Assembly (NCBI GenBank): GCA_030622515.1
Contig: JAUXGB010000001.1
Location: 1-45,085, forward strand
DNA: 45,085 nucleotides
From: Candidatus Altiarchaeota archaeon
GTDB taxonomy: Archaea > SpSt-1190 > DYHY01
Direction: 5' to 3'
In this document: in pieces, positions 7,676-40,872 of the stretch
Layout: each line of letters begins with the position of its first letter
Numbering within the stretch: position 1 is the stretch's first letter
Notes under the pieces: generated by a model
Seen by the model: the letters and a program-made list of their open reading frames with translations, nothing else
Told to the model about the DNA's origin: nothing
Databases searched by the model: none
Position numbers and translations under genes: made by a program

Positions 7676-7685
7676 ATCCCCGAAA

Positions 7686-7697
7686 CGTATTAAAGCC
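7686..7697 (+). promoter_or_regulatory. TATA-like box
   Basis: CGTATTAAAGCC is centred 27 nt upstream of ATG 7718. Confidence 0.5.
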
Positions 7698-7717
7698 GAA
7701 ACCACTTTTTAAGGGCT

Positions 7718-8992: not shown

Positions 8993-9016
8993 GCAGGGCG
9001 GCTTTCTCGCAGCCTA

Positions 9017-10021: not shown

Positions 10022-10137
10022 CCCTACATAACCACCTTCCAGTGCTACCTTATAAAACTTGCTTGATTCTTAGGGAATACCTTTTTAAACCCCCACCCTA
10101 GAAGTTAGGAATTATCCGAAAAGGGGCAAGACTCAAA

Positions 10138-10800: not shown

Positions 10801-10819
10801 GATACGGGGGAAGTACAAA

Positions 10820-11956
10820 ATGAAAGGACTTATCGGTTCGGTTCGTGAAAAGGCGTCTGGTCACCACACAGGTACAGACACAGAATTAGAGGAGATACTC
10901 AGGCAGCACAAGGCTGTTATTCGGGTAGTTGGAATTGGAGGTTCCGGAAACAATTCAATCCTGAGAATGATGGAAGTCGGCATTGAAGGGGCTGAAATGA
11001 TAGCGATTAACACTGACGCCCAGGACCTGCTTAAGGTAAAGGGGGCCCAAAAGGTCCTCATCGGGAAAGACATAACAGGCGGCCTTGGAGCCGGCGCAGA
11101 CCCGACAATTGGCGAGCAGGCAGCTCGCGAGAACGAGCAGGACATCAAGGAGGCCCTTATGGGAACTGACCTGACCTTTATCACCTGCGGCCTTGGCGGA
11201 GGAACAGGAACGGGCGGAGCCCCGGTAGTTGCCGAGGTTTCAAAGAAGCTCGGAGCCCTGACAATTGGAATAGTCACCCTGCCTTTCGAGATGGAAGGAC
11301 ATGCAAGGTGGAACAACGCGGTCATGGGTCTCTCCAAGCTTGAGACAGTTGTTGACACCCTGATTGTCATCCCAAACGACAAGCTGCTCCAGTTGGTTCC
11401 TGACATACCAATCTCAACAGCGTTCAAGGTCGCGGACGAAATCCTTGTCAACGCGGTTAAGGGAATCACTGAACTGATTACCAAGCCGGGATTAATCAAC
11501 CTCGACTTTGCAGATGTCAAGGCAGTCATGCTGTCTGGCGGGGTTGCCCTCATCGGCCTTGGCGAGAGCGATACGGAGAACCGTGCCATGGAGTCTGTTA
11601 CAAAAGCAATCAACTCCCCGCTTCTTGATGTTGATATCACCGGGGCAAAGGGAGCCTTGATTAATGTCATTGGCGGACCAGACATGACGCTTGACGAGTC
11701 GCGAAACATCGTCTCAATAGTCACGGACAAGCTTGACCCTGAGGCAAGGGTAATCTGGGGTGCCCAGATTGACGAATCCCTCAAGCAGACCGTTCGCGTG
11801 CTCCTCATCGTGACAGGCGTCCAGTCGGCCCAGATAACCGGCAGGGAAAAGCTGATGGAAGACAAGCGAAGGACAAGGATGGAAAAAGAACTCGGCATCG
11901 AGTTTGTTTCAGTAGAGGAGACCGGCCTTGAGAAACCGATTAAACGACTATCTTAG
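10820..11956 (+). CDS. ftsZ: cell division GTPase FtsZ
   Basis: Tubulin/FtsZ signatures GIGGSGNN, NTDAQ and GLGGGTGTGGAPVVA. The ATG at 10820 follows GGGGGAA. Confidence 0.95.
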   Translation: MKGLIGSVREKASGHHTGTDTELEEILRQHKAVIRVVGIGGSGNNSILRMMEVGIEGAEMIAINTDAQDLLKVKGAQKVLIGKDITGGLGAGADPTIGEQAARENEQDIKEALMGTDLTFITCGLGGGTGTGGAPVVAEVSKKLGALTIGIVTLPFEMEGHARWNNAVMGLSKLETVVDTLIVIPNDKLLQLVPDIPISTAFKVADEILVNAVKGITELITKPGLINLDFADVKAVMLSGGVALIGLGESDTENRAMESVTKAINSPLLDVDITGAKGALINVIGGPDMTLDESRNIVSIVTDKLDPEARVIWGAQIDESLKQTVRVLLIVTGVQSAQITGREKLMEDKRRTRMEKELGIEFVSVEETGLEKPIKRLS

Positions 11957-12089
11957 AGTCCTCAGCATTGCACGCCGTCCGACAAAAGAGGAATTTGTTA
12001 GGATAGTTCAGCTGACAGGAATAGGCATACTTGCAATCGGCATGCTTGGCTTTGCAATAAACATTGTCTTCCAGCTGATTGGACTGTGA
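11928..12089 (+). CDS. secE: preprotein translocase subunit SecE (Sec61 gamma)
   Basis: 53-aa ORF absent from the supplied track, translating as (TTG)RNRLNDYLRVLSIARRPTKEEFVRIVQLTGIGILAIGMLGFAINIVFQLIGL. It has the typical SecE amphipathic helix plus a single TM. GAGGAG lies 7 nt upstream. It sits in the conserved ftsZ-secE-nusG-L11 position. Confidence 0.8.
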   Translation: MRNRLNDYLRVLSIARRPTKEEFVRIVQLTGIGILAIGMLGFAINIVFQLIGL

Positions 12090-12100
12090 AGGTGAAAAAA

Positions 12101-12568
12101 ATGAGCGTGATTTACGCAATAAGAACGACAGTAGGAAGGGAAGAGACCGTCCTCGAAAACATAGACTTAGCGCTGGCGAAAAAAGATTTTCAGGTGAAAG
12201 CCATAATCCTCCCGAAGGAAATCAAGGGATATGTAATTGCGGAAGCGGGTTCAATTTCTGATTTGGAAGAGGCTATCCACGGCGTAAACCACGTGCGAGG
12301 CTTGGTCCGCAAACCCCTGACCATTGAGGAAATCAAGCACTTCCTGATTGCCAAGCCGGCGAAGATGAAGATAGACAAAGGCGACATTATCGAGCTTGTC
12401 AGCGGGCCTTTCAAGGGCGAAAAAGCGAAGGTGACAAGAGTTGACAAGACGAAAAGGGAAGTGACAGTTGAACTGATTGAGGCTGCCGTGCCCATTCCCG
12501 TAACAGTCGCGGTCGAATCCATCCGGGTTGTCCAGCACATTAACGAGGAGAAGCCCAAACCTTCCTAA
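12101..12568 (+). CDS. nusG: transcription elongation factor Spt5/NusG
   Basis: NGN domain start MSVIYAIRTTVGREE and KOW motif GDIIELVSGPFKGEKAKVTRVD. GTG at 12086 is an alternative start. Confidence 0.9.
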   Translation: MSVIYAIRTTVGREETVLENIDLALAKKDFQVKAIILPKEIKGYVIAEAGSISDLEEAIHGVNHVRGLVRKPLTIEEIKHFLIAKPAKMKIDKGDIIELVSGPFKGEKAKVTRVDKTKREVTVELIEAAVPIPVTVAVESIRVVQHINEEKPKPS

Positions 12569-16644: not shown

Positions 16645-17406
16645 CTAGAATAACATCAAGCTAACAGCCATAACTGCCATCCCGATGATTATCCCTACAA
16701 TGGACAAATGACCTGATTTGTCATACTCAAAGGAAACAGGAAGCAGTTCATCAAAACTAATGAACACCATTATTCCTGCGACAAACGCAAGACTGAGCGA
16801 AAGCACGACAGGACTGAGGAACGGCATGAGAATCAGGAATCCAATGACCGCCCCAACCGGCTCGGCAAGCCCTGAGAGAAGGGAGAGCCAGAACGCCTTT
16901 GCCCTGCTCTTTGTTGCATAATAAATTGGCATTGAGACAGCAATCCCCTCAGGAATATTGTGTATTGCAATAGCAATTGCAAGGGAAATGCCCAAGGAAG
17001 GGCTTTGCAGTGAACTCATGAAGACGGCAAGCCCCTCAGGGAAGTTGTGAATAGCTATCCCAATCACAGTAAAAACCCCTGCCGCCATAAGTCTCCTGTT
17101 CTTCCTGTCAACCTTAACGTGCTCCTCAATATACTCATGAGGGACAAGAAAGTCAATAGCAGCAATAAAGACAATGCCGACAAAAAAAGCAAGGTTGCCC
17201 AAGCCAAACCCAACGCTCTCGATAGAAGATGCCAGAAGCTCTGCGAAGGAGACATAAATCATAACGCCGGCAGAAAACCCAAGGGCAAGGCAGAGATAGC
17301 ATTTTTTGAAATCCTTTATGAAGAAGGAAATAAGGCTTCCAATCCCTGTCGAAAGCCCTGCAAGAGTTGTGAGCAGCAGCGGCATCCAAATCTGCTCAAG
17401 ATTCAT
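16645..17406 (-). CDS. zupT: ZIP-family zinc transporter
   Basis: Duplicated ZIP signature HNFPEGLAV / HNIPEGIAV, 8 hydrophobic helices, and a TATA-like box 27 nt upstream. Confidence 0.9.
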   Translation of the reverse strand: MNLEQIWMPLLLTTLAGLSTGIGSLISFFIKDFKKCYLCLALGFSAGVMIYVSFAELLASSIESVGFGLGNLAFFVGIVFIAAIDFLVPHEYIEEHVKVDRKNRRLMAAGVFTVIGIAIHNFPEGLAVFMSSLQSPSLGISLAIAIAIHNIPEGIAVSMPIYYATKSRAKAFWLSLLSGLAEPVGAVIGFLILMPFLSPVVLSLSLAFVAGIMVFISFDELLPVSFEYDKSGHLSIVGIIIGMAVMAVSLMLF

Positions 17407-27625: not shown

Positions 27626-28753
27626 ATGAAAGGACTAACTTACGAAAAAGCAGGCGTTGACATTAAATTGGGCGATAAGGCCTCAGATATTTTCTTCAAC
27701 GCGGCAAAGCAGACTTGGAAAAACAGACAGGGCAAGCTAGGCGAGGTAGTTATGCCCTTCAAGGGATTTTCAGGCAAGAGATACATAGATGTTGGCGGCC
27801 TTCCCGAAGGCACTATAATGAGCTTTAACTTTGACGGCATAGGGACAAAAGTGGAAATTGCCGAGAGAATTGGAAAGTTCGACACTCTTGGAAAAGACCT
27901 ACTGGCAATGGTTGCTGAAGATTCAGCACGTGACGGCATGGAGCCTGTGCTTGTAGGGTCAATAGTTGATGTAAAAGCCCTCAAGAACAAGAAAAAACAA
28001 CCTTACCTTGGCGAAGTAAATCAACTCGCAGTAGGATACATGGATGCTGCAAACGATGCAGGAGTCGCGATATTCAACGGCGAAACGGCCGAACTTGGCT
28101 ATCTAGTTGGCGGCTACGGAAGAGAATTCAAGTTGAACTGGGGGGCAGCCTGCGTTGCCTTTGGCCACAAAAGCAGAGTTCTTACAGGTGACAAAATAGA
28201 GGAAGGCGATGCAATAGTTGGCCTAAAGGAAGACGGTTTCAGATCAAACGGACTATCTCTCGTTAGAAAGACTCTGAGGAAAGCCTATGGAAGAGACTGG
28301 CACAAAGGAAGAGAAGACATAGCAGAACAGGTTCTTGAACCATCGACAATCTACACAAAAGCACTTCTCGACATGACAGGCGGTGCAGACCTTGAAAGAA
28401 AACCACAGGTTGAGGTCCACGGAATAGCCCACGTAACTGGTGGAGGAGTTCCAGGCAAGCTTGGGAGGCTGCTCGAGCCGACGGGGCTGGGAGCCAGAAT
28501 CTCAAACCCAATGGAAGTTCCTGAGATAATGGACTATTGCCAGACGTTAGGAAAAGTCTCGAACAAGAATGCCTACAAGACTTGGAACATGGGACAGGGA
28601 ATGTTGGTTGTTCTTCCTAAGGAACAATCTGAAGAAGCAATCAAGATATCAAGCAGGTATGGTTTTGAGGCAGATGTAATTGGCACTATAACAACAGACA
28701 ACTATATTGCCATAAGGACAGATGCCAACAACATGGAGAAGTTTAGCATATAG
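27626..28753 (+). CDS. purM: phosphoribosylformylglycinamidine cyclo-ligase (AIR synthetase)
   Basis: PurM N-terminus LTYEKAGVDIKLGD plus FDGIGTKVEIAE and AHVTGGG. Preceded by AGGTGA. Confidence 0.9.
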   Translation: MKGLTYEKAGVDIKLGDKASDIFFNAAKQTWKNRQGKLGEVVMPFKGFSGKRYIDVGGLPEGTIMSFNFDGIGTKVEIAERIGKFDTLGKDLLAMVAEDSARDGMEPVLVGSIVDVKALKNKKKQPYLGEVNQLAVGYMDAANDAGVAIFNGETAELGYLVGGYGREFKLNWGAACVAFGHKSRVLTGDKIEEGDAIVGLKEDGFRSNGLSLVRKTLRKAYGRDWHKGREDIAEQVLEPSTIYTKALLDMTGGADLERKPQVEVHGIAHVTGGGVPGKLGRLLEPTGLGARISNPMEVPEIMDYCQTLGKVSNKNAYKTWNMGQGMLVVLPKEQSEEAIKISSRYGFEADVIGTITTDNYIAIRTDANNMEKFSI

Positions 28754-28761
28754 GTGAAAGA

Positions 28762-29616
28762 CTAGCTGACAAGCATTGCAGCGCCAGCGACAGCAGTCGC
28801 CGCGCCAAGAAGCCGCCTCTTCAGCTGCTTCTTCTCGCCAAGGAACAGGATGCCGAGCACCAGCGCAAGGACCGCCATAACCCTTGAGGCAGGGTAGGCA
28901 ATGTGGACATCCATCACAAGGTAGGCATTGAGGATGAAGTAGTAGGCAAGCAGCCCGCTAGTCGCCGCGCCGGCAATTGCAAGCATATCATTCCCTCTCG
29001 CAATCTTCCTAACCTTCTTGAAATCTATCCTGAAGACAAAGGGAAAGAAAAGTGCCGGGACCAGAAACCCCATTGCATTGTAAAACATGGGGTCAAAGTT
29101 TGGCACGTTGAACTTGTCAATAATGGCTCCAAAGCTGACAAGAAGCGCTCCAAGGATTGCGTACTGGACCCCCCTGTTTTTCAGGTGGCCAAAAGGATTC
29201 CTGTCCCATGTAGCAACAGTCAGGCCTGCAAAAAGAACCAGCATGCCAACTCCTCTTTCAACTGTTATGGCTTCGCCAAGGAGAAGTGTCGCAAGAATCG
29301 CAACAAAAAGAACCCTCACCCCGCCTATACCGGTGATTAGGGAGAGGTCGGCAAGCTCCATAGACAGGAACCTAAGTAAGGATGCAAAAATCCATAAAAA
29401 AGAGGCGAAGAGAAGTATTAGCCAAGGAGCTGCCTCAGACGGGAGATTGCTCAGGTCAGAGAGAAGAACAACCAGTATTATTCCAAAAGCCGCACCAACC
29501 AGCTGGAAAACATAGTTCTTGTGCAGTGCATCCCCGCCCTTGACAGCCACCTTCTGGAGAAAAATGCTGACTGCTCCAAAAAGAACCGCCAGCAGGATGT
29601 AGATGGTGCCAATCAT
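28762..29616 (-). CDS. EamA/DMT-family permease
   Basis: 284-aa ORF with 10 hydrophobic helices in two EamA-like halves. A TATA-like box lies 26 nt upstream. Confidence 0.8.
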   Translation of the reverse strand: MIGTIYILLAVLFGAVSIFLQKVAVKGGDALHKNYVFQLVGAAFGIILVVLLSDLSNLPSEAAPWLILLFASFLWIFASLLRFLSMELADLSLITGIGGVRVLFVAILATLLLGEAITVERGVGMLVLFAGLTVATWDRNPFGHLKNRGVQYAILGALLVSFGAIIDKFNVPNFDPMFYNAMGFLVPALFFPFVFRIDFKKVRKIARGNDMLAIAGAATSGLLAYYFILNAYLVMDVHIAYPASRVMAVLALVLGILFLGEKKQLKRRLLGAATAVAGAAMLVS

Positions 29617-32037: not shown

Positions 32038-33609
32038 ATGAAAAGGCTTTTTGGAATATTCTTAGGAATTTTACTATTGGTTTCTCCCGTTGTTGCGCCA
32101 AACACGGAAGGGACAACCACTACAACCACCAGCGGCTGGTACACAACCGAGGGGATTTGGTTAAGCAGCGACTGCGTTAACCTTTGCCACCAGTACAACT
32201 ACCAGGCAACCCTGACAAACGAGGGAAAGAAAGACGTCGACTGGAACTGCTACAATGTCTGCATTAGGGAAGGCAAGCTTCTCCCGACTCAGGAAGAAGA
32301 AGAGTTAATCAATGCCATGATGGAAGACGCACCGACGCTAAGCACAATTACAATTTCCCAAGAAGCCCCTGTGCCTACCCTCATATCCTCAGCTACAGGC
32401 CTAATCAAAACCACCACCCTTACTACTTCCTCAAGCGGAGGAACAGGCCCTGTAGTTAGTGTTATTCAAGTTGAAACTACATCTTCCTCAGGCGGTTCAG
32501 GCGGAGCTGCAGCCCCAACTCAATTGACGAAAATCTGCCATATCGATGAAAACCTCATGAGAGACTATGACTATCTTTTAAGGCAGCTTAAGGAAGCCGA
32601 CGCAGTCGGCGACACCGAGTCTGCAAACCAGATTGAGGAAAAAATCAGGGCACTTAAGCAGGAAATTGAGAGGAGCCGGACCTGCGAGGAAGTTCCCATG
32701 GAAGTTAGGACAGAGACTGCAACAGCCGAAGTGGCGAGGCCTATTGCTACCTCAGTGATTGACAAGTGCCGCGATGCAAATGACTGGAGGGAGAAACTCA
32801 GCTTCTACGAAAGGCTCTACAGCCTGAACGACGAGCAGCTGAGGGACAAGGGATTCTCCCGCGAGGAAGTTCTCAAAATCAAGCTGGAGCTTCGCGAGGG
32901 AGTCGCCAGACTTGACAAGGAGTGCAAGCTACAGCAGTCAGGCGAGGCTGGTCTCATAACAGCTGTCGAGAAGCCGGTAGTGGCGTCAAGGCCTGTCGAG
33001 ATAACAGACTACTACAAGAAGAAAATAGACGCTGTTGTCCAGTCTGGCCAACCCGTTCAGGAGCAGATACAAAGCCTTAAGCGGTTGCGTGGCGAGATAG
33101 ACGAATTAATCGAGAGGCTTGTGAAGGAAAAAGAGGAAATTGCCTTTGACGAGATGGAAGGCCTTGTTGAGGAAATAGAAATGACGCCAACCTCTCTTAT
33201 TGTTGACGATAACAACATAGAGGTAACAAACAAGGAGATTTCAACAAGAATCGGGAACATGGAGCTGAGGATAAGGCAGCTTGAGGACACGGTGGCCATT
33301 GAGCAGGGCGGCCGGATTGTCAAGGTAAATGCCGACAGCGTAACGATTCGGGAAGGAAACCTAAACATTGGCGGGAAAGCCATCTCAATAGCCCCGTCCG
33401 AGGCAATCGCCGCGGCAAAACTTGTGCCAAAGGAGGTTGTTGTCGATACAGTTGGTGAAAAAGCAGTCTACAGGATATCGGCAGAGAACCAGAAGCGGCT
33501 GTTTTGGGTAATCCCTGTCGTCGTTAGCGAGGAAGCAGTTGTTGACGCGGAAAGCGGAAGTGTTATCTCGATAAATGCACCGTGGTGGAGTGCCTTGGCC
33601 TTCGGATAA
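32038..33609 (+). CDS. secreted modular protein with a Cys-containing head, Thr/Ser linkers, coiled coil and a PepSY-like C-terminal domain
   Basis: 523-aa ORF with signal peptide MKRLFGIFLGILLLVSPVVAP. Also TTTTTTSG and TTSSSGGTG / TTSSSGGSGG linkers, long heptad-like E/K/R/L region. The C-terminus AISIAPSEAIAAAKLVPKEVVVDTVGEKAVYRISAENQKRLFWVIPVVVSEEAVVDAESGSVISI fits the PepSY pattern. Confidence 0.7.
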   Translation: MKRLFGIFLGILLLVSPVVAPNTEGTTTTTTSGWYTTEGIWLSSDCVNLCHQYNYQATLTNEGKKDVDWNCYNVCIREGKLLPTQEEEELINAMMEDAPTLSTITISQEAPVPTLISSATGLIKTTTLTTSSSGGTGPVVSVIQVETTSSSGGSGGAAAPTQLTKICHIDENLMRDYDYLLRQLKEADAVGDTESANQIEEKIRALKQEIERSRTCEEVPMEVRTETATAEVARPIATSVIDKCRDANDWREKLSFYERLYSLNDEQLRDKGFSREEVLKIKLELREGVARLDKECKLQQSGEAGLITAVEKPVVASRPVEITDYYKKKIDAVVQSGQPVQEQIQSLKRLRGEIDELIERLVKEKEEIAFDEMEGLVEEIEMTPTSLIVDDNNIEVTNKEISTRIGNMELRIRQLEDTVAIEQGGRIVKVNADSVTIREGNLNIGGKAISIAPSEAIAAAKLVPKEVVVDTVGEKAVYRISAENQKRLFWVIPVVVSEEAVVDAESGSVISINAPWWSALAFG

Positions 33610-34865: not shown

Positions 34866-35717
34866 ATGCGAATAGCATACTTCGAGTTGATGGGAAAAGA
34901 CCTCCCGGGCGGGATAGCTGGCGACATGTCAAACGCCTCAATACTGGACATGCTTCCCGACAATGAAAAGTTTGAGCTGATGGCCTATCTTGAGGAAAAC
35001 CTGAAGAAAATGCCCGGCCTTGAAAACGTTTCCCTTGTTGTCAGGGAGGAAGAGCGAAACGGCGAGAAGGGCACCAACATCAACTTTATATTTCTTGATG
35101 AATACAATCACAACCATCAACATGAGCACCATCACACCCATTACACTGACATAAGGGACAACATAGCTGGAAGCGAGCTTCCCGACTATGCAAAAAACTT
35201 CTCCCTAAAGGCGTTCGAGCTGCTTGCAGAGGCCGAGAGGAAAGCCCATGGCAAGGATTCGATAGACGAAGTCGCGTTCCATCAGGTCGGGGAAAGAGAC
35301 TCCATCGCGGATATTGTCGGTTTCGGCCTCGTTTTGAATTACCTGAACGAAAAAGAGCCGATAAAGGCAATCTATTCCTCGCCAGTCCCAATCAGCCACG
35401 GCAAAGTGCATGTTGGCCACGGCCACGGAGACGAGGACGGAAATATGGATGTGCCGGTCCCGGCTGTAATGCACCAGCTTGCCGATGAAAACACGAGGCC
35501 TGTAAATGTCGATGGGGAAATAGTCACCCCGACAGGAATTTCAATCATCCGCGCCACAATGCAGATAGTCAACGGCAAGGAAATCTACCTAGAGGCCAAC
35601 CCAATAACCAGCCCAACCCACTCAGGAGCGGGATTCGGTGACAATGTATATGAGAATGCAGGACCTCTCAGAGTTCACATAGGCGAGGCAGAGCAGCCTT
35701 TGTCAGCAGAGTCTTGA
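34866..35717 (+). CDS. larC: LarC-like nickel-insertion protein, N-terminal domain only
   Basis: LarC/DUF111 signatures GGIAGDMSNASILDML, His-rich NHNHQHEHHHTH, FHQVGERDSIADIVG, VPVPAV, GEIVTPTGISII and GAGFGD...GPLRV. Its 283 aa fall well short of the roughly 400 aa usual for full-length LarC. Confidence 0.8.
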   Translation: MRIAYFELMGKDLPGGIAGDMSNASILDMLPDNEKFELMAYLEENLKKMPGLENVSLVVREEERNGEKGTNINFIFLDEYNHNHQHEHHHTHYTDIRDNIAGSELPDYAKNFSLKAFELLAEAERKAHGKDSIDEVAFHQVGERDSIADIVGFGLVLNYLNEKEPIKAIYSSPVPISHGKVHVGHGHGDEDGNMDVPVPAVMHQLADENTRPVNVDGEIVTPTGISIIRATMQIVNGKEIYLEANPITSPTHSGAGFGDNVYENAGPLRVHIGEAEQPLSAES

Positions 35718-36151
35718 TGGGTGTCAGGAAGATACTCCGGCCTGTAAGCCTTAATGTCAATTACAGGAGAACTGTCAAACGCGTCCAGTCCCTTTACCCT
35801 CAAGGTGTTTCCCTCCACCCCAAGGACCTCAACAACACACAGCCCAATGGGGTTGGGCCGTCTTGGACTTCGCGTAGCAAAGCTGCCGAACAGTTCTTTC
35901 CCTTCCTTTACGTGATGAGGGAGGACCTGAACAGCGACCCGCTCCTTTTCACCAAGTTCATGCAGCCAGTAGAGGACAATGAGGTGCTTCACTTTCTCAA
36001 CACCAAGCAGGCCCCTCCGGAACTGGGGGAAAATTTCTATCTCTGAAACAACATCCTTAACATCCCTCTCAAAATCGTATCTGGTTCCCCTCTCTCTGGT
36101 GTAACCAGTCTTCACCACCCCTATCGGCTTCATCTTTATTTCCAACACCAT
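35675..36151 (-). CDS. trmO: TrmO/TsaA (YaeB)-family tRNA methyltransferase
   Basis: Signatures MKPIGVVKT, FATRSPRRPNPIGLCVVEV and GLDAFDSSPVIDIKAY. ATG 36133 is an alternative start. The 3-prime end overlaps the convergent larC-like gene by 43 nt. Confidence 0.85.
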   Translation of the reverse strand: MVLEIKMKPIGVVKTGYTRERGTRYDFERDVKDVVSEIEIFPQFRRGLLGVEKVKHLIVLYWLHELGEKERVAVQVLPHHVKEGKELFGSFATRSPRRPNPIGLCVVEVLGVEGNTLRVKGLDAFDSSPVIDIKAYRPEYLPDTHQDSADKGCSASPM

Positions 36152-36171
36152 CCAAACCCCCGCGATTGTTT

Positions 36172-37317
36172 CTAGTAATCTGCCCTCATCCCGCCGGAGC
36201 AGTTTAGGACGACAGTGTCTTCAGGAGCAATCTCCCCCTCCCCAACCAGCTTTTCAAGTCCCCCAAGGGCAATCATAGCCTCGACGCCGGCGTCCTCAAC
36301 ACCATCCTCCCTGTAAAGCCTCTGGAGCCTGTCAAAGTGCTTCAGTTCATCGTCCTTCCCCTCAAAAACGCTTTCAAAGGAGCCGCCATTTTCCTTGATT
36401 ATTCTTTTCAGGTAGGGATAAGAGATGTACAGCTTGGGATTTGCTATGCCAAGGGCATGGGTATCTGTTTTCTCAACAATTTCCCTCCCCTTCCATGCGT
36501 CTACCATTGGGCAGCACCCTCCCGGCTGGATGCAGTAGAGGCGGGGCACCGGCTTGCCAAGGTCCTTGTGCGCCTTGTAAAATGCATACACCCCGACCCC
36601 GCTCGCCACAGCCTGAACATAGGCGTCCACCTTGTCAAGCTTTTCAAGAACCTCGAACCCGATTGTCTTCATGCCTTCTATCCTCAATGGGTTGAAAAAT
36701 CCGTATTCAAGTGGGAGGCTCCTCTCCTTGGCAAACTCTCCGGCCGCCTCAATAGCTTTGTCAAAGGTCTCGCCCTCGACATGGGTTATGACATTTGGGC
36801 CCTCTACACCTGCCCTCTCCATCATCTTTTCCCAGCGTGGCACAGCATTTCCCGGAACATAAACATGAAGCTTAAGTGCGCCTGTCATAGCAGCCCCTCG
36901 CGCGTGAGCCAGCCCGCTGTCGCCTGTTGTGGCAGTGACAAGTTCATCGTATCCCAGCTCCCTGAGGCGTGAAAGCGTCATGAAAGCCTCCCTGTCCTTG
37001 AAGGTCTTTGTGGGCTGTGCTGATTCAACCTTTATGTAAAGCTCCTCCAGCGGGGCATCAGGCGATATCTCTTCAGCTATCGCCCTGCTCCTGATAAGTG
37101 GGCTGTCAACCACCTTCAGGTCAAGCGCATTGTCCAAATTGTTTATGGGAAGAAGGCTGTGGAACCTCCACACCGAATCTTTTGAGCTGTCAAAAAATTC
37201 ATCCGGCTTGTTGTACCTTATCTCAAGCAGCCCCCCGCACGCCACGCAGTTTCTCAAATACTCGTCCCTGTGGTTTTCTTCACCGCAGTCGACACAGACA
37301 TGATGGAATTTCTCCAA
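36172..37317 (-). CDS. threonine synthase-like PLP enzyme with N-terminal zinc ribbon
   Basis: CVDCGEE...CVACGG ribbon, PLP-lysine context PTKTFKDREA and TTGDSGLAHA. TTG start, with no in-frame ATG near the N-terminus. Confidence 0.75.
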   Translation of the reverse strand: MEKFHHVCVDCGEENHRDEYLRNCVACGGLLEIRYNKPDEFFDSSKDSVWRFHSLLPINNLDNALDLKVVDSPLIRSRAIAEEISPDAPLEELYIKVESAQPTKTFKDREAFMTLSRLRELGYDELVTATTGDSGLAHARGAAMTGALKLHVYVPGNAVPRWEKMMERAGVEGPNVITHVEGETFDKAIEAAGEFAKERSLPLEYGFFNPLRIEGMKTIGFEVLEKLDKVDAYVQAVASGVGVYAFYKAHKDLGKPVPRLYCIQPGGCCPMVDAWKGREIVEKTDTHALGIANPKLYISYPYLKRIIKENGGSFESVFEGKDDELKHFDRLQRLYREDGVEDAGVEAMIALGGLEKLVGEGEIAPEDTVVLNCSGGMRADY

Positions 37318-37331
37318 AGTTCATCACAGCG

Positions 37332-37347
37332 TTATAAAATTTTATAA
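37332..37347. promoter_or_regulatory. perfect 16-bp palindrome TTATAAAATTTTATAA (bidirectional TATA and candidate NikR operator)
   Basis: The sequence is self-complementary. It lies between the divergent thrC-like gene (TTG 37317) and nikR (ATG 37411). Confidence 0.55.
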
Positions 37348-37410
37348 AGGGCTAAATACCAACCCAAAGTAGCACGAAGAAGTTCCAGTCGTGTCACAAA
37401 GGTTGATTTT

Positions 37411-37854
37411 ATGAAGGGAATGACAAAAGAAGGGGATATGGGAAAGCTGGTCAGGTTCGGGGTTTCCCTGCCGGAAGAGCTGGTTGAGGAATTTGACAGG
37501 ACGATAAGGGAGGTTGGCTACTTCAGCAGGTCGAGAGCCATAGGCGACGCTATCCACACCTTAATTCTTGAGCAGGCATGCAAGAAAAATGGCGAGCTGA
37601 TAGCTACAATCTCTTTCATCTACAACCACGGCTCAAAGCAGGTGACAGACAGCCTGACAAAGCTCCGCCACAAGTACAAGGGGATACTTTCCGCAATCCA
37701 GACCCACGTGAACAAGGACGAGTGCGTTGAAGTTTTGATTGTTGAAGGAAAGCAGACCGAACTCAGAAGGCTGGTGGGCGAGATTACCGCCGTAAGGGGA
37801 GTTATCAGTTGCAGGGTGTCCGCCCTTTGCAAGCGGAAACGAGGGGAGAAGTGA
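37411..37854 (+). CDS. nikR: NikR-family ribbon-helix-helix metal-responsive regulator
   Basis: RHH N-domain LVRFGVSLPEELVEEFDRTIREVGYFSRSRAIGDAIH. ACT-like C-domain with NHGSK and THVNKDECVEV. ATG 37438 is an alternative start. Confidence 0.85.
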   Translation: MKGMTKEGDMGKLVRFGVSLPEELVEEFDRTIREVGYFSRSRAIGDAIHTLILEQACKKNGELIATISFIYNHGSKQVTDSLTKLRHKYKGILSAIQTHVNKDECVEVLIVEGKQTELRRLVGEITAVRGVISCRVSALCKRKRGEK

Positions 37855-37887
37855 GCATCCATCAAATCCCAACCAATCAGTAAGGCA

Positions 37888-38391
37888 ATGGCTCTGCGCA
37901 TAAGGTATGGGTTTGGCTCTCTTGAGGGAAAAGTCGAGAGGGGCGAGATAACAAGGGAGGAAAAGCAGAAATTGGAAGACGCTGTCAGGAATGGAAAACC
38001 GCCGGATGAAGAGTTCCTTCTTCACGTTTTTTCACCATCCACTAACTATATGAAACAGATAGCAAAGGAACTGGGAAAAGACACAATCTGGGACGAGGCA
38101 GTTATAGACAACTACTTCCTTGGTGGCCTTCACAACCGCCACGTTGAGACTGGCGTTTTTGGTTCCATGGGCAAGACCCAACAGGAACTCTGCAAGGTCC
38201 ACCTTGGCGAGATAAAGGAGATTTCTCAGGCAGGCAACAAAACATTCTACAAGGTTGCCTACAACGGCGGCTCACAAACTGTCTTTGCCGATTTTGTGCC
38301 AGATGCCAATCAAGGAGACAAAGTGGTAATTCACCAGTCCTATGCTGTAAAGATGGTAAATGGAAGCAGGGCGGCAGAGCAACCTATTTAA
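37888..38391 (+). CDS. uncharacterised protein with C-terminal HypC/HupF-like domain (paralogue A)
   Basis: 167-aa ORF. Its C-terminal segment ELCKVHLGEIKEI...YKVAYNGGSQTVFADFVPDANQGDKVVIHQSYAVKMV follows the HypC pattern, and the Cys is internal (residue 102). Confidence 0.65.
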   Translation: MALRIRYGFGSLEGKVERGEITREEKQKLEDAVRNGKPPDEEFLLHVFSPSTNYMKQIAKELGKDTIWDEAVIDNYFLGGLHNRHVETGVFGSMGKTQQELCKVHLGEIKEISQAGNKTFYKVAYNGGSQTVFADFVPDANQGDKVVIHQSYAVKMVNGSRAAEQPI

Positions 38392-38413
38392 GTTCCGAAA
38401 GGAGCCTCCCAGC

Positions 38414-39307
38414 GTGGACAAGAAAGGAATTGCGTTAATCTTCCTGACAGCCCTTATCAGCGGATTTGCAATCTTCATTAACAAGTTCGGCGTTGCAGTT
38501 GTTTCACCCGACGTCTTCACGACCCTAAAGAACACGACAGTCGCCTTCATGCTTCTCGCCTCCCTCTTCTACTTCGACAGGGGGAAGCTTGCTTCCCTGA
38601 CAAGAAAGAACTGGCTCTCCCTTCTCGCCATCGGCGCTATCGGCGGAAGCGTACCATTCATCCTCTTCTTCCGCGGCCTTGCCATCGCAACGGCGGCGAC
38701 AGCCGCCTTCATCCACAAAACCATGTTTCTCTATGTGGCAGTCCTCGCAGCGTTTTTCCTAAAAGAAAAGATTTCCAGAAAACTTTTGGCCGCAGCCGGG
38801 TTGCTTTTAGCAGGAAACGCCCTCTTCCTCAAGTTCACACCGGCCGAACTAACCATAGGAACAGTCATGGTTCTTGCAGCAACCCTCCTCTGGGCAGGGG
38901 AAGCAGTCCTCTCAAAGAAAGTGCTAAAGAAGCTTGACAGCTCAACAGTCGCTTTCGGGCGGATGTTTTTCGGCTCGCTGTTCCTTCTAGCTTACCTGAT
39001 AGCCACCAGTCAGGCTCCAGCAATCCTCACCCTTAACCAGTCCCAGCTTGGCTGGGTTGCTGTCACAGCCCTTTTCCTCTTGGCCTACGTAACCACATGG
39101 TACAGCGGGCTGAAAAGGGTTTCAGCTTCGACCGCCGCCTGCATCCTTTCCCTTGGCGCACCAATAACCACAGGGCTGAAAGTTTTGGCCGGAGCAGCCC
39201 TCCCCTCGCCTGTTCAGGCCTTTGGTGTTCTCCTGATTCTTGCCGGCGTCTCTTTCGCCATTCTCCACGAGGTGACCTGCCGTGAAGCGGCTCGGGTTGC
39301 TGGTTAG
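38414..39307 (+). CDS. EamA/DMT-family permease
   Basis: 10 hydrophobic helices in two EamA-like halves. GTG 38414 lies about 10 nt after AGGAG. ATG 38360 is the alternative and would overlap the upstream gene by 32 nt. Confidence 0.8.
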   Translation: MDKKGIALIFLTALISGFAIFINKFGVAVVSPDVFTTLKNTTVAFMLLASLFYFDRGKLASLTRKNWLSLLAIGAIGGSVPFILFFRGLAIATAATAAFIHKTMFLYVAVLAAFFLKEKISRKLLAAAGLLLAGNALFLKFTPAELTIGTVMVLAATLLWAGEAVLSKKVLKKLDSSTVAFGRMFFGSLFLLAYLIATSQAPAILTLNQSQLGWVAVTALFLLAYVTTWYSGLKRVSASTAACILSLGAPITTGLKVLAGAALPSPVQAFGVLLILAGVSFAILHEVTCREAARVAG

Positions 39308-39983
39308 GTTCTCAATGGCGCCAAACAGCCTTCACTACTGCGGGCCCCGGAAAGCTGAAAAAACTTTCAAAACCTATCTTAAGACCGGCAGGGGCGAAGC
39401 CAAGGTTAAACACCAGTTGAAAACCTTCGAAGGCCTCTATCCCTATCTCCGCCTGATTGGAAAAAGGAACAAAATGAGCCCATTCGACCAAAAGGTTGCC
39501 GAGGCCTACTGGATTGGCAACTCCCTGCTCCAGAAAGTCTCCCGCCTCGACCTGAGGAAAATGGTTCTCAGGGAGTTTCCCCTGCCGCGCTCAGTTGCCA
39601 AAGAGCTGGCCTACTCCATCCCGTCGCAGGCAAAGCCTCATCACTCATTCCACGTCTTTTACATCCAGTCAGTTACCGGACGGGTCAACCTTGGCTTGCT
39701 AACTGTCCAGAACAACTGCCGGATTGGCTGGGGAAAGGTGCTGAGGGCAGGGAAATCAGTTACCCTCTCCGCTCCCCATGTAAGCGCAGGCCCAAGACTG
39801 AAGCTTTCCCAGCCAAAAAAGCTTCGAATTGGCAACCAAGCCGGAATAAAGGCCTCTAAAGGCGATATTCTGGCCTTCCACTGGGGCGAGGCTGTCTCAG
39901 TTCTGACTAAGCGTCAGGCTAAAAATCTGGAAAAATATACAAAAATAGGCCTTTCCTGCGTGAGAAGGCCTACTTCTTCTTGA
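39282..39983 (+). CDS. uncharacterised protein with C-terminal HypC/HupF-like domain (paralogue B)
   Basis: 233-aa ORF with the C-terminal segment NNCRIGWGKVLRAGKSVTLSA...KGDILAFHWGEAVSVL. It shares the upstream motif (FDQKVAEAYWIGN vs WDEAVIDNYFLGG) with paralogue A. GTG start, overlapping the permease by 26 nt. Confidence 0.65.
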   Translation: MKRLGLLVRFSMAPNSLHYCGPRKAEKTFKTYLKTGRGEAKVKHQLKTFEGLYPYLRLIGKRNKMSPFDQKVAEAYWIGNSLLQKVSRLDLRKMVLREFPLPRSVAKELAYSIPSQAKPHHSFHVFYIQSVTGRVNLGLLTVQNNCRIGWGKVLRAGKSVTLSAPHVSAGPRLKLSQPKKLRIGNQAGIKASKGDILAFHWGEAVSVLTKRQAKNLEKYTKIGLSCVRRPTSS

Positions 39984-40257
39984 CGACTCTCATCCTCTTC
40001 TTGATTCGCGGGATTAGCTTGCCTGCAATCTTCTTCCTGAATCGTTCCAGCTTTGCTGCATTTTGGTACTTCTTCTTCGCCTTGCCTTTAGCCTTCTTGG
40101 CTTTTCTCAATATCTTCTTTGCAGCGCTGTTCGCCGTCCTCTTCTGCTTGTTTGCCCAGGAGAGGTGCTTTCTAAGCTGCTTAAGCTTCTTTGCTTTTGC
40201 AACAGCCTTCCCCGTTCTTACGAAAACCGCCCTTATAGTTGCTTGATTCTTGGCCAT
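39970..40257 (-). CDS. 95-aa extremely Lys/Arg-rich protein (candidate nucleic-acid-binding protein)
   Basis: ATG start with a TATA-like box (CGTTTAAAATTGG on the minus strand) centred 26 nt upstream. The sequence is non-repetitive, about one third Lys, and uses AAG-biased Lys codons like native genes. A Phe-rich ORF on the opposite strand is the competing reading. Confidence 0.55.
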   Translation of the reverse strand: MAKNQATIRAVFVRTGKAVAKAKKLKQLRKHLSWANKQKRTANSAAKKILRKAKKAKGKAKKKYQNAAKLERFRKKIAGKLIPRIKKRMRVVKKK

Positions 40258-40359: not shown

Positions 40360-40872
40360 ATGGGGAAAGTTCACCTTTACACAGGCCATGGTGGCGGCAA
40401 ATCCACCTCTGCGTTGGGTGTAGCCTTGCGAGCCCTTGGCCACAACTACAAAGTTATTGTAATCCAGTTTATGAAAGGCAGAAAAGAGGTTGGCGAGTAC
40501 AAGATGATGAAAAAATTAGGGCCAAAGTATGAAATCCACCAGTTTGGCACACAGCATTTTGTAAGCCTCAAGAAGCCAACCGAGGAAGACCGTAAGCGGG
40601 CTGCCGAGGCACTTGAGTTTTCCAAGAAAGCCCTCAGGCGCAAACCCTTTTTGTTAATCCTTGACGAAATAAATGTCGCCTGTGCAGCCGGGCTAGTCGA
40701 CACAAGGGACGTCCTCAAACTGCTGAAAAGAATTCCAAAGAGAACTTCTGTTTACCTGACAGGCCGCTACGCGCCAAGGGAGCTAATCAAGCGTGCCGAC
40801 TTTGCAACCCAGGTAATGGACCTTCACCGACCAAGAATAGGTTCCTACGAGGGCAAAGGAATCGAGTGGTAA
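40360..40872 (+). CDS. cobA: CobA/CobO/BtuR-family ATP:cob(I)alamin adenosyltransferase-like protein
   Basis: 170-aa ORF with P-loop-like YTGHGGGKSTSALGVALRALGHNYKVIVIQFMKG and LLILDEIN. Confidence 0.75.
   Translation: MGKVHLYTGHGGGKSTSALGVALRALGHNYKVIVIQFMKGRKEVGEYKMMKKLGPKYEIHQFGTQHFVSLKKPTEEDRKRAAEALEFSKKALRRKPFLLILDEINVACAAGLVDTRDVLKLLKRIPKRTSVYLTGRYAPRELIKRADFATQVMDLHRPRIGSYEGKGIEW

What the first reader, a model, noticed from the sequence alone, without database searches (positions are those of the whole stretch)
37332..39983. NikR-headed operon with two paralogous HypC/HupF-like fusion proteins flanking a DMT permease
Seen: nikR (37411-37854), ORF A (37888-38391), an EamA/DMT permease (38414-39307) and ORF B (39282-39983) are co-directional. 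They are separated by gaps of 33 nt and 22 nt and then a 26-nt overlap, so they look like one transcription unit downstream of the palindromic TATA element. The C-terminal ~65 aa of A (ELCKVHLGEIKEISQAGNKTFYKVAYNGGSQTVFADFVPDANQGDKVVIHQSYAVKMV) follow the hydrogenase-maturation chaperone HypC/HupF pattern. So does the C-terminus of B (NNCRIGWGKVLRAGKSVTLSA...KGDILAFHWGEAVSVL). That pattern is C-x4-G-x-[IV], a small beta barrel, then GD-x-[VI]-x-x-H-x-x-x-A. Upstream, both share a second motif (IAKELGKDTIWDEAVIDNYFLGG vs IGKRNKMSPFDQKVAEAYWIGNS), so A and B look like paralogues. Established: in genuine HypC the Cys is residue 1 after Met removal and is needed to carry the Fe(CN)2CO group. Here the Cys is internal (residue 102 of 167 and 146 of 233). 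No hydrogenase or hypA/B/D/E/F gene is in the window. Inference: this is a metal-responsive handling or export module built on a repurposed HypC fold. I do not know of a characterised system with this composition.
Basis: partly seen in the sequence, partly recalled or inferred. Interest (0 to 1): 0.75.

Follow-up and report, generated by a model that had tools for sequence, protein, structure and literature searches.

The report
HypC-derived chaperones with permease, hydrogenase-linked
This archaeal operon encodes a nickel-type regulator, a membrane permease and two related proteins built on the hydrogenase chaperone HypC; in hundreds of other microbes the same permease-plus-chaperone pair lies inside [NiFe]-hydrogenase gene clusters, so it is probably an unstudied helper of hydrogenase assembly.

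Summary
nikR, ORF A (167 aa), an EamA/DMT permease and ORF B (233 aa) are co-directional with the stated spacings. B is a full-length DUF6390 protein. A belongs to an unnamed family of about 160 aa that is a short paralogue of DUF6390 (hhalign 98.4%). Both end in a HypC-type OB domain, and their conserved Cys and His align with the N-terminal Cys2 of HypC and its conserved His. The Cys is internal because a helical domain with no PDB match precedes it.

In 80 species-level loci from DPANN, Thermoplasmata, Patescibacteria and Chloroflexota, EamA lies next to DUF6390 in 64. Of 48 loci with full flanks, 41 carry a [NiFe]-hydrogenase large subunit, mostly the four-subunit group 3b type, with HypC, HycI and HypA nearby. 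Natural fusions exist: EamA::DUF6390, HypC::A-like and A-like::HycI.

The best reading is an uncharacterised accessory module of [NiFe]-hydrogenase large-subunit maturation, here placed behind nikR. Which metal species it handles, and what the permease carries, are unresolved. The window is atypical: both paralogues are present, there is no canonical HypC or hydrogenase in 45 kb, A lacks the family's N-terminal Cys, and NikR lacks one Ni ligand. I found no paper on DUF6390.

The parts
37332..37347 (.). Perfect 16-nt palindrome TTATAAAATTTTATAA in the 93-nt divergent intergenic region between the ThrC-like gene (- strand) and nikR. It is a candidate bidirectional archaeal TATA/BRE element, and possibly a regulator site.
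   Evidence: Sequence. It is the only inverted repeat found in 37280-37420. Its function is inferred, not tested.
37411..37854 (+). nikR-type regulator with an RHH DNA-binding domain and a NikR C-terminal metal-binding domain. The likely true start is the ATG at 37438. Equivalents of E. coli His76, His89 and Cys95 are kept, but the His87 position is Gln.
   Evidence: Pfam NikR_C 1.8e-18 and RHH_1. NCBIfam NF003381 at 110.8 bits against a 105 cut-off. Alignments to 2bj1, 2wvd and 1q5v.
37888..38391 (+). ORF A, 167 aa: a helical N-domain (residues 2-102) followed by a HypC-type OB domain (104-157). It is a short paralogue of DUF6390. Conserved Cys102 and His149 correspond to HypC Cys2 and its conserved His. 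The family's N-terminal 'FPC' Cys is Ser11 here.
   Evidence: Family of 133 representative clusters. Alignment A3. hhalign against DUF6390 gives 98.4%. 33 of 46 members hit HupF_HypC. AF2 pLDDT 90.6. Foldseek top hits are HypC. Profile against PDB HypC gives 5.4e-9. hhalign of the C-domain against HypC gives 98.3%.
38414..39307 (+). EamA/DMT permease with two EamA repeats; it belongs to the subfamily that is the conserved partner of DUF6390. Invariant residues include Glu118, Trp160, Glu163, Arg183 and Tyr230. There is no conserved His or Cys.
   Evidence: Pfam EamA 1.6e-34. No NCBIfam equivalog reaches its cut-off. EamA lies directly upstream of DUF6390 in 60 of 80 loci and adjacent in 64 of 80. 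A natural EamA::DUF6390 fusion occurs in L025. Conservation was computed over 56 sequences.
39282..39983 (+). ORF B, 233 aa: a full-length DUF6390 protein. It has a ten-helix N-domain, a HypC-type five-strand OB domain (149-208) and a C-terminal helix. It keeps all family-invariant residues, including Cys20, His120, His121, Cys146 and His200.
   Evidence: Pfam PF19927 2.4e-40. 439 homologues. Alignment A1. AF2 pLDDT 93.4, pTM 0.91. No whole-protein PDB match, only weak OB-fold hits. hhalign of the C-domain against HypC gives 95.7%, E = 8.7e-9, with Cys146 on Cys2. Profile against PDB gives HypC as best hit at E = 0.031.

Best explanation
ORF A, the EamA permease and ORF B form an accessory module for assembling the active site of a [NiFe]-hydrogenase large subunit. 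In relatives that hydrogenase is mostly the cytosolic four-subunit group 3b enzyme. In this DPANN archaeon the module has been placed behind a NikR-type regulator.

Shown:
- A and B are paralogues built from a novel helical domain fused in front of a HypC-type OB domain.
- They keep HypC's metal-site Cys and His.
- Their families are genomically locked to hydrogenase structural genes, HypC, HypA, the HycI endopeptidase and this EamA subfamily.
- Natural fusions join EamA to DUF6390, HypC to A-like proteins, and an A-like protein to HycI.

Inferred mechanism:
- The OB domain docks on HypC and/or the unprocessed large subunit.
- A Cys/His site at the junction of the helical and OB domains holds a metal species. 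In B the candidate ligands are Cys20, His120/121, Cys146 and His200. In A's family they are Cys11, His82, Cys102 and His149.
- B works at the cytoplasmic face of the permease, which moves a small molecule needed for, or released by, this step.

My specific commitment is the nickel-dependent stage, between HypC-mediated Fe(CN)2CO insertion and HycI cleavage. The reasons are that the fusions bracket that step, HypA is a neighbour, His-rich motifs are conserved, and NikR heads the operon here. I put the general claim (hydrogenase-maturation accessory) at about 0.7. I put the nickel-stage version at about 0.35, only slightly ahead of an iron/Fe(CN)2CO role.
For: - Fold and homology.
- Context of DUF6390 in 80 species genomes: EamA directly upstream in 60 and adjacent in 64. 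Of 48 loci with at least 6 kb on both sides, 41 have a [NiFe] large subunit and 39 an adjacent EamA. DPANN loci score 8 of 8 on both.
- Unbiased clustering of neighbours recovers the hydrogenase beta (31 loci) and gamma (30 loci) subunits, HycI, HypC and HypA.
- A linked large subunit is closest to Pyrococcus sulfhydrogenase I and the Thermococcus cytosolic hydrogenase, E about 1e-86.
- Context of A's family: HypC immediately upstream in 5 of 5 loci, HypA upstream in 2, and a convergent EamA immediately downstream in the 3 loci with room. In L086 this lies next to a 3b hydrogenase.
- Fusions: EamA::DUF6390. HypC::A-like in four representative clusters, with the HypC part at 54-68 bits, and A-like::HycI.
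- Nickel link in the window: nikR lies 33 nt upstream of A, and a LarC N-half with a His-rich tract lies 1.7 kb upstream.
- Established background: HypC Cys2 and HypD Cys41 hold Fe(CN)2CO, nickel is inserted afterwards, then the endopeptidase cleaves (PMC12134894).
Against: - The window has no hydrogenase, canonical HypC, HypA or HycI in 45 kb. The link therefore rests on relatives at 42% identity or less.
- NikR is next to the module in this window only, and this NikR has Gln at the His87 ligand position.
- ORF A lacks the near-invariant N-terminal Cys of its family.
- The permease has no conserved His or Cys.
- In four Patescibacteria loci a CbiM/NikM-type Ni/Co uptake gene sits in the same operon, so EamA is unlikely to be the primary Ni importer.
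- The ancestral HypC function concerns iron, not nickel.
- The metal site is inferred from conservation only. I could not measure distances in the models.
- About half of the Chloroflexota loci have DUF6390 without an EamA nearby.
Confidence: 0.6

Rival explanations
1. Iron branch. A and B are alternative Fe or Fe(CN)2CO carriers, or scaffold partners of HypC. In this view the helical domain supplies the second thiolate that HypD Cys41 supplies in the canonical HypCD complex. The permease moves a precursor or by-product of diatomic-ligand synthesis. This is a sub-variant of the general claim; it differs only in which metal step is served.
For: The C-domains are true HypC homologues, with the Cys aligned to Cys2 and the His aligned to HypC's conserved His. 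HypC::A-like fusions exist and HypC-A adjacency is constant, as expected for a HypC partner. A CbiM-type Ni transporter coexists in the same operon. The permease looks like a metabolite carrier rather than a metal carrier. No HypD, HypE or HypF recurs within 8 kb of the module.
Against: The free N-terminal amine and thiolate of HypC is described as essential (PMC12134894), and here the Cys is internal. The A-like::HycI fusion and the HypA adjacency point to later steps. NikR control fits nickel better. Presence or absence of HypD/E/F elsewhere in these genomes was not testable.
Confidence: 0.3
2. In this genome the module has been co-opted for nickel homeostasis or for another nickel enzyme, and is independent of any hydrogenase. 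One possibility is that it serves the LarC-type nickel-pincer pathway encoded nearby.
For: No hydrogenase, HypC, HypA or HycI in 45 kb. nikR heads the operon only here. A LarC N-half with a His-rich tract lies 1.7 kb upstream. The window is the rare case carrying both paralogues.
Against: All invariant residues of DUF6390 are kept in B. The closest B and A relatives with usable context lie in hydrogenase clusters. Only 5 kb of sequence is available downstream of the operon, and hyp genes are often scattered. No precedent was found for DUF6390 outside a hydrogenase context in DPANN, where all 8 full-flank loci are hydrogenase-linked.
Confidence: 0.12
3. The permease and DUF6390 serve the physiology of the sulfhydrogenase rather than its maturation. 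An example would be moving or carrying a thiol or (poly)sulfide substrate or product on the conserved cysteines.
For: The linked enzymes are sulfhydrogenase-type. Thioredoxin reductase, glutaredoxin and DsbA-like genes recur near the module in Patescibacteria loci. Characterised EamA-family members export cysteine-related metabolites (my own knowledge, not tested here).
Against: DUF6390 also accompanies non-3b large subunits plus a HycI-type protease in Chloroflexota. The fusions are to HypC and HycI, which are maturation proteins, not to catalytic subunits. The homology is to a maturation chaperone.
Confidence: 0.08
4. The window's copy is a decaying remnant of a hydrogenase cluster that has lost its enzyme.
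For: The hydrogenase and canonical HypC are absent. ORF A has lost the family's N-terminal Cys. NikR has lost one Ni ligand. B has small deletions relative to its family.
Against: All four ORFs are intact, tightly spaced and preceded by good ribosome-binding sites. B keeps all 17 invariant positions. Both AF2 models are confident. Composition is like the rest of the contig.
Confidence: 0.1

Closest known systems
HypC/HybG/HupF family of [NiFe]-hydrogenase maturation chaperones (Pfam PF01455; structures 2z1c, 3vyr-3vyu)
   Same: The C-terminal domains of A and B are homologous to HypC in sequence profile and fold. The conserved Cys aligns with Cys2, and the GD-x-V-x-x-H motif is kept. They share genomic company with hydrogenase, HypA and HycI.
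   Different: HypC is a stand-alone protein of about 75 aa whose Cys is the N-terminal residue after Met removal. Here a helical domain of 100-145 aa with no PDB match precedes the Cys, which is therefore internal. That domain adds further conserved Cys/His residues. Canonical HypC usually co-occurs with these proteins, so they are not replacements for it. ORF A scores below the Pfam cut-off and ORF B does not hit the model at all.
DUF6390 (Pfam PF19927)
   Same: ORF B is a full-length member with all invariant residues.
   Different: The family has no assigned function, and no paper in the library mentions it. ORF A is not a member by score (16.8 bits against a cut-off of 25). It is a shorter paralogue lacking the roughly 55-residue insertion that carries the PHHSFH motif.
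Extended HypC paralogues of oxygen-tolerant hydrogenase systems (HupF, HoxL), which work with the scaffold protein HupK/HoxV (my own knowledge; HoxV is mentioned in PMC12134894)
   Same: They are extra HypC-like proteins that act alongside the canonical HypC on the large-subunit precursor.
   Different: As far as I know, those proteins keep the N-terminal Cys and carry C-terminal extensions, and they belong to aerobic group 1 systems. Here the extension is N-terminal, the organisms are mostly anaerobes with group 3b enzymes, and a permease is part of the module.
Permease genes embedded in hydrogenase clusters (HoxN/NiCoT, HupE/UreJ, NikMNQO/CbiMNQO) and NikR-controlled nickel uptake operons (my own knowledge)
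   Same: A membrane transporter gene conserved inside hydrogenase operons, and here directly downstream of nikR, resembles the classic arrangement for nickel supply.
   Different: The transporter is an EamA/DMT protein, unrelated to those families. It lacks conserved His motifs and coexists with CbiM in some operons. It is coupled, and once fused, to a cytoplasmic HypC-derived protein.

Membership tests
HypC/HupF (PF01455) | Small OB-fold beta-barrel homologous to HypC | tested here: met
   For A, Foldseek's top four hits are T. kodakarensis HypC (TM 0.57-0.81 normalised to HypC, rmsd 2.6-3.3 A). The A-family profile against PDB HypC gives 5.4e-9. hhalign of the C-domains against 28 HypC sequences gives 98.3% for A's family and 95.7% for DUF6390.
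HypC/HupF (PF01455) | Score above the Pfam gathering threshold | tested here: not met
   ORF A scores 25.3 bits against 28.5, and ORF B has no hit. 33 of 46 members of A's family hit at E < 0.01, the best at 6.8e-10.
HypC/HupF (PF01455) | Essential Cys is residue 2, becoming the free N-terminus after Met removal | tested here: not met
   The Cys is at position 102 of 167 (A) and 146 of 233 (B), preceded by a confidently folded helical domain. The requirement is stated in PMC12134894.
HypC/HupF (PF01455) | Conserved His in the GD-x-V-x-x-H-x-G-x-A motif | tested here: met
   His149 (A) and His200 (B) are invariant in their families and align with the HypC His.
HypC/HupF (PF01455) | Carries Fe(CN)2CO together with HypD and delivers it to the large subunit | not testable with these tools
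   This needs metal analysis, infrared spectroscopy and interaction assays.
DUF6390 (PF19927) | Full-length match above threshold, with the family-invariant residues | tested here: met
   This row is for ORF B: 139 bits against a cut-off of 25, profile positions 10-239 of 244. All 17 invariant columns of a 35-sequence alignment are kept. ORF A scores 16.8 bits, is not a member, and is a distant paralogue.
NikR | N-terminal ribbon-helix-helix domain plus C-terminal NikR metal-binding domain | tested here: met
   NikR_C 66.9 bits and RHH_1 19 bits. NCBIfam NF003381 at 110.8 against 105, and NF002815 at 87.2 against 83. Best PDB hit is P. horikoshii NikR at 8e-23.
NikR | Four high-affinity Ni ligands (E. 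coli His76', His87, His89, Cys95) | tested here: not met
   In the alignment to 1q5v, His76, His89 and Cys95 equivalents are present, but the His87 position is Gln ('QTH' instead of 'HVH'). The residue numbering is from my own knowledge of E. coli NikR.
NikR | Binds a dyad operator upstream of the regulated genes in response to Ni | not testable with these tools
   The only dyad found upstream is the AT-only palindrome at 37332-37347, which looks more like a TATA element.
EamA/DMT transporters | Two EamA repeats, about 10 TM helices | tested here: met
   PF00892 at 119.5 bits, two stretches.
EamA/DMT transporters with known substrate (e.g. YddG, 2A78) | Score above the equivalog cut-off | tested here: not met
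   TIGR00950 at 57.8 against 230, and YddG at 32.3 against 300.
[NiFe]-hydrogenase gene cluster | Structural subunit genes and canonical maturation genes adjacent to the module | tested here: not met
   For the window: none in 45 kb. For relatives it is met: 41 of 48 full-flank loci.

The most novel reading that the evidence does not exclude
DUF6390 and its short paralogue, together with their dedicated DMT permease, are an unrecognised additional component of anaerobic [NiFe]-cofactor biosynthesis. This component is found in at least about 590 species across DPANN, Patescibacteria, Thermoplasmata and Chloroflexota. It would perform a step the canonical HypA-F scheme does not explain. One example is supplying or carrying the iron, or the precursor of a diatomic ligand, whose anaerobic CO source is still unknown. 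Another is substituting for HypD-type scaffolding in reduced genomes. In either case the permease would import or export the relevant small molecule.
Probability: 0.15. Interest if true: 0.9.

Novelty: new variant of a known kind. Interest (0 to 1): 0.66.

Why it matters
[NiFe]-hydrogenase maturation is regarded as a closed set of six Hyp proteins plus a protease. Even so, the anaerobic source of the CO ligand, the iron donor and the electron donor to HypD are unresolved (PMC12134894).

This finding adds a widespread, uncharacterised pair: a HypC-derived two-domain protein and a DMT permease. Gene order and three kinds of natural fusion tie the pair to HypC, HycI and the hydrogenase. It occurs in lineages (DPANN, Patescibacteria) whose group 3b hydrogenases are central to their fermentative lifestyle.

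It gives concrete, clonable candidates for biochemical tests. It shows that the 'N-terminal Cys' rule of the HypC fold has a large class of exceptions. It would also improve annotation of several hundred genomes in which these genes are 'hypothetical' or a DUF.

Tried and rejected
1. The word-indexed homologue search for ORF A found only the window's own protein. The exhaustive HMMER search was needed to find the family.
2. Direct sequence searches of A and B against PDB gave only marginal HypC hits or nothing. Profiles were needed.
3. Foldseek of the whole ORF B model found no meaningful PDB match. It returned only weak S17-type OB-fold hits and did not list HypC in the top 50. HypC similarity for B therefore rests on hhalign and on its paralogy with A.
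4. Rfam and tRNA scans of the window were empty.
5. I considered the AIRS-family ORF at 27626-28753 as a possible HypE. It matches only PurM and sits next to purL/purQ.
6. I looked for HypD, HypE, HypF and HypB among neighbours recurring in at least 4 of 80 loci. None appeared; the recurrent extras were GAPDH, PGK, thiol-redox proteins, CbiM and a P-type ATPase. This says nothing about their presence elsewhere in those genomes, which I could not scan.
7. I tried to test conservation of nikR-A-DMT-B in the nearest relative by walking from FtsZ.
8. The window's own record is not in the gene-position index, so the rest of the genome could not be examined.
9. 'EamA as a classical Ni2+ permease' was downgraded after the conservation analysis and the CbiM co-occurrence.
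10. The sigma-70 promoter scan is not applicable to archaea and found nothing.
11. Literature searches for DUF6390, for HypC with EamA, and for CPR or DPANN hydrogenase maturation found no description of this module.

Full report
**1. What is in the sequence**

- nikR, 37411-37854
- ORF A, 37888-38391
- an EamA permease, 38414-39307 (an alternative ATG lies at 38360)
- ORF B, 39282-39983

The spacings are 33 nt, 22 nt and a 26-nt overlap. The GTG starts of the permease and of ORF B are each preceded by a good ribosome-binding sequence (AAAGGAG and GAGGTGA). No terminator-like hairpin falls between the genes. A perfect 16-nt palindrome, TTATAAAATTTTATAA, lies at 37332-37347 in the divergent intergenic region. 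The layout is therefore that of one operon, although transcription itself is untested.

The window is archaeal, with PCNA, TFS, Spt5, tRNA-splicing endonuclease and FtsZ. Its FtsZ is 64-68% identical to the named hits, which are proteins of Woesearchaeota, Nanoarchaeota and Aenigmarchaeota; unnamed hits reach 74%. The organism is thus a DPANN archaeon. GC content is about 50% throughout, and the operon is not compositionally foreign.

**2. Identity of the four proteins**

- **NikR.** It passes the NCBIfam NikR equivalog (110.8 bits against 105) and matches Pfam NikR_C. Aligned to E. coli NikR, it keeps the equivalents of His76, His89 and Cys95, but the His87 position is Gln. Homology starts at residue 12, so the ATG at 37438 is the likelier start.
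- **Permease.** It is a two-repeat EamA/DMT protein (1.6e-34) with no match to any substrate-defined NCBIfam model.
- **ORF B.** It is a full-length member of Pfam DUF6390 (139 bits).
- **ORF A.** On its own it gives only sub-threshold hits: HupF_HypC at 25.3 bits against 28.5 on residues 108-164, and DUF6390 at 16.8 bits on residues 42-93. The word-indexed search found only the window's own copy of it. An exhaustive HMMER search found 133 representative clusters of proteins around 160 aa that match over their whole length.

**3. A and B are paralogues built on HypC**

A profile of 46 A-family sequences aligns to a profile of 35 DUF6390 sequences with 98.4% probability (E = 6.7e-15) over 156 columns. 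DUF6390 differs mainly by an insertion of about 55 residues that carries the invariant PHHSFH motif.

Evidence that the C-domains are HypC homologues:
- 33 of the 46 A-family members hit Pfam HupF_HypC, the best at 6.8e-10.
- The A-family profile finds Thermococcus HypC in PDB at 5.4e-9, with its Cys on HypC residue 2 and its His on the HypC His.
- Against an alignment of 28 canonical HypC sequences taken from related loci, the C-domain of A's family scores 98.3% (E = 1.4e-14). That of DUF6390 scores 95.7% (E = 8.7e-9). In both cases the Cys aligns on Cys2.

AlphaFold models are confident: pLDDT 93.4 for B and 90.6 for A. Each shows a helical N-domain followed directly by a five-strand barrel. 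For A, the four best PDB matches are HypC structures (TM up to 0.81 normalised to HypC, rmsd 2.6 A, 25-26% identity). For B, the whole-protein search returned only weak OB-fold hits. The helical domains match nothing in PDB.

This is a HypC fold with an internal Cys (102 of 167 and 146 of 233), preceded by a second shared motif.

Family-conserved residues suggest a Cys/His site. In DUF6390 these are Cys20, His120, His121, Cys146 and His200. In A's family they are Cys11, His82, Cys102 and His149. The window's ORF A has Ser at the Cys11 position.

**4. Genomic company**

DUF6390 relatives occur in at least 591 species-representative genomes. I analysed the best 80 loci, which came from DPANN archaea, Thermoplasmata, Patescibacteria, Chloroflexota and a few others.

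- An EamA gene of the same subfamily lies directly upstream of DUF6390 in 60 loci and adjacent in 64.
- Of 48 loci with at least 6 kb on both sides, 41 contain a [NiFe]-hydrogenase large subunit. For DPANN this is 8 of 8.
- Unbiased clustering of all neighbours recovered the large and small subunits. It also recovered a Fer4_22 protein (31 loci) and an NAD_binding_1/DHODB_Fe-S protein (30 loci), which are the beta and gamma subunits of the four-subunit cytosolic enzyme. HycI, HypC and HypA were recovered as well.
- One linked large subunit is closest to Pyrococcus sulfhydrogenase I and the Thermococcus cytosolic hydrogenase, which makes it group 3b.
- The gene in front of the permease is usually a canonical HypC beginning 'MC'. 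The recurrent order is HypC-EamA-DUF6390, as in L002, L004, L029, L038 and L049.

The A family has the same associations. A canonical HypC lies immediately upstream in 5 of 5 loci. HypA precedes it in two loci. A convergent EamA lies immediately downstream in the three loci with room. In L086 a complete 3b hydrogenase follows, with no DUF6390 present.

There are thus two versions of the module, one with DUF6390 and one with the short paralogue. The window and one Patescibacteria locus (L033) carry both.

**5. Fusions**

- L025 (a Kerfeldbacteria genome) encodes a single 563-aa protein with EamA (residues 10-303) joined to DUF6390 (residues 322-561).
- Four representative A-family clusters begin with a canonical HypC (54-68 bits) fused in front of the A-like unit.
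- One cluster carries a HycI-type endopeptidase domain after the A-like unit (22.5 bits against a cut-off of 23).
- Another has a cytidylyltransferase-like domain in front.

These fusions argue for physical cooperation of these proteins with the permease, with HypC and with the protease that finishes large-subunit maturation.

**6. Mechanism**

*Shown:*
- homology to HypC, with retention of its metal-site Cys and His;
- a novel N-terminal domain with additional conserved Cys/His;
- tight and phylogenetically broad linkage to [NiFe]-hydrogenase genes, HypC, HypA, HycI and one EamA subfamily;
- the fusions.

*Established background:* Fe(CN)2CO is built between HypC Cys2 and HypD Cys41. It is transferred to the large subunit, nickel is then inserted by HypA/HypB, and finally the endopeptidase cleaves (PMC12134894).

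*Inferred:*
- A and B dock through the OB domain on HypC and/or the large-subunit precursor.
- They hold a metal species at a Cys/His site at the domain junction.
- B operates at the cytoplasmic face of the permease.

I commit to the nickel-dependent stage as the most likely point of action, at about 0.35. The reasons:
- the fusion partners (HypC before, HycI after) bracket that step;
- HypA is a neighbour;
- His-rich motifs are conserved;
- in this window the operon is headed by nikR and lies 1.7 kb from a LarC N-terminal half with a His-rich tract.

The iron/Fe(CN)2CO alternative is almost as likely, at about 0.3, for these reasons:
- the fold's ancestry is iron-related;
- the permease has invariant Glu118, Glu163, Arg183 and Tyr230 but no conserved His or Cys;
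- in four Patescibacteria operons a CbiM-type Ni/Co uptake gene sits right beside HypC-EamA-DUF6390, which makes EamA an unlikely primary nickel importer.

The substrate of the permease is unknown.

**7. How the window differs from its relatives**

- It has no hydrogenase, canonical HypC, HypA or HycI anywhere in the scanned ORFs of its 45 kb. Only 5 kb lies downstream of the operon.
- It has both paralogues.
- It is the only locus with nikR directly attached. In the 80 loci, NikR appears once, 6 kb away on the other strand.
- ORF A lacks the family's N-terminal Cys, and NikR lacks one Ni ligand.

These points keep two minority readings alive: co-option for a hydrogenase-independent nickel role, and early decay. 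Against decay, all ORFs are intact and tightly coupled, and B keeps every invariant residue. I could not reach the rest of this genome or the orthologous region of the nearest relative.

**8. Comparison with known systems and novelty**

The C-domains belong to the HypC superfamily by homology. Neither protein is a HypC family member in the operational sense:
- the defining N-terminal Cys is not N-terminal;
- the proteins are two to three times longer;
- the Pfam threshold is not reached;
- canonical HypC normally co-occurs with them.

ORF B is a member of DUF6390, a family without function and without any mention in the searchable literature. No paper combining HypC, EamA and hydrogenase was found. 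Searches on CPR and DPANN hydrogenase maturation returned nothing describing the module.

The nearest functional analogies are the extended HypC paralogues HupF/HoxL and the permease genes embedded in hydrogenase clusters (HoxN, HupE, NikMNQO). Both analogies come from my own knowledge and differ in the respects listed under Closest known systems.

I rate this a new variant of a known kind: an uncharacterised, widespread accessory module of [NiFe]-hydrogenase maturation with a novel HypC-derived architecture and a DMT partner.

**9. Verdict**

The finding is real, non-trivial and experimentally tractable. Its importance lies less in this particular NikR-headed operon than in the family-level association it exposes. 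Interest is 0.66.

Noticed in passing
window 34866-35717 (+): N-terminal half of a LarC-type nickel insertion protein (PF01969 1.9e-46, profile positions 4-238 of 375; NCBIfam LarC). It has a His-rich tract, NHNHQHEHHHTH. No C-terminal half is adjacent. It is another nickel-related gene 1.7 kb from nikR.
   Followed up: partly
window 35675-37317 (-): A TrmO/TsaA-like protein (158 aa) and a ThrC/cysteate-synthase-like PLP enzyme (381 aa) with an N-terminal Cys-rich zinc-ribbon-like segment. They are transcribed divergently from nikR and share the palindromic AT-rich element. Their function is unclear, and co-regulation with the nikR operon is possible.
   Followed up: no
window 37411-37854 (NikR residues about 99-108): This NikR has Gln where E. 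coli NikR has the Ni ligand His87 ('QTHVNKDEC' against 'HVHINHDDC'). The other three ligand positions are kept, so its metal response may differ from that of classical NikR.
   Followed up: partly
L025 7017-8708 (+); proteins P0134, P0181, P0230, P0235, P0240, P0236: Natural domain fusions in the two families: EamA::DUF6390 (563 aa); canonical HypC::A-like (215-233 aa, four representative clusters); A-like::HycI endopeptidase (274 aa); cytidylyltransferase-like::A-like (280 aa).
   Followed up: yes
L027, L029, L038, L066: In these Patescibacteria-type loci the maturation and transport genes are inserted in the middle of the hydrogenase operon. The order is HydB-HydG-CbiM-(CbiN-like gene of about 100 aa)-HypC-EamA-DUF6390-small subunit-large subunit.
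   Followed up: partly
Patescibacteria and DPANN loci among L005-L084: GAPDH (10 loci), PGK (8 loci), thioredoxin reductase (6), glutaredoxin (5) and a DsbA-like protein (5) recur near the hydrogenase/DUF6390 cluster. This may reflect a conserved fermentation and redox gene island.
   Followed up: no
L005, L023, L027, L031, L037, L038, L042, L046, L048, L070, L071: Record titles of several 'binchicken' co-assembly MAGs (Gammaproteobacteria, Pseudomonadales, Methanosarcinales) carry loci whose gene content and order match the Patescibacteria or DPANN loci. These taxonomic labels look unreliable.
   Followed up: no
window 39970-40257 (-): A Lys-rich 95-aa ORF (about one third Lys) converges on ORF B and overlaps its last 14 nt. 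It has only a weak, sub-threshold DUF2239 hit.
   Followed up: no
window 40360-40872 (+), 28762-29616 (-), 16645-17406 (-): A CobA-type ATP:corrinoid adenosyltransferase lies just downstream of the operon. A second, unrelated EamA permease and a ZIP-family metal transporter lie elsewhere in the window.
   Followed up: no
window 32038-33609 (+): A 523-aa protein with an N-terminal hydrophobic segment, Thr/Ser-rich stretches and long charged, probably coiled-coil, regions. It has no Pfam or NCBIfam match and may be a surface protein.
   Followed up: no
L090 (GCA_053530055.1) against window 5382-12568: The nearest relative by FtsZ (71% identity) shares the order ScpA-ScpB-NFACT-(protein of about 422 aa)-FKBP-FtsZ-(small ORF)-Spt5 with the window and then diverges. 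It also carries a RuBisCO large-subunit gene upstream.
   Followed up: partly
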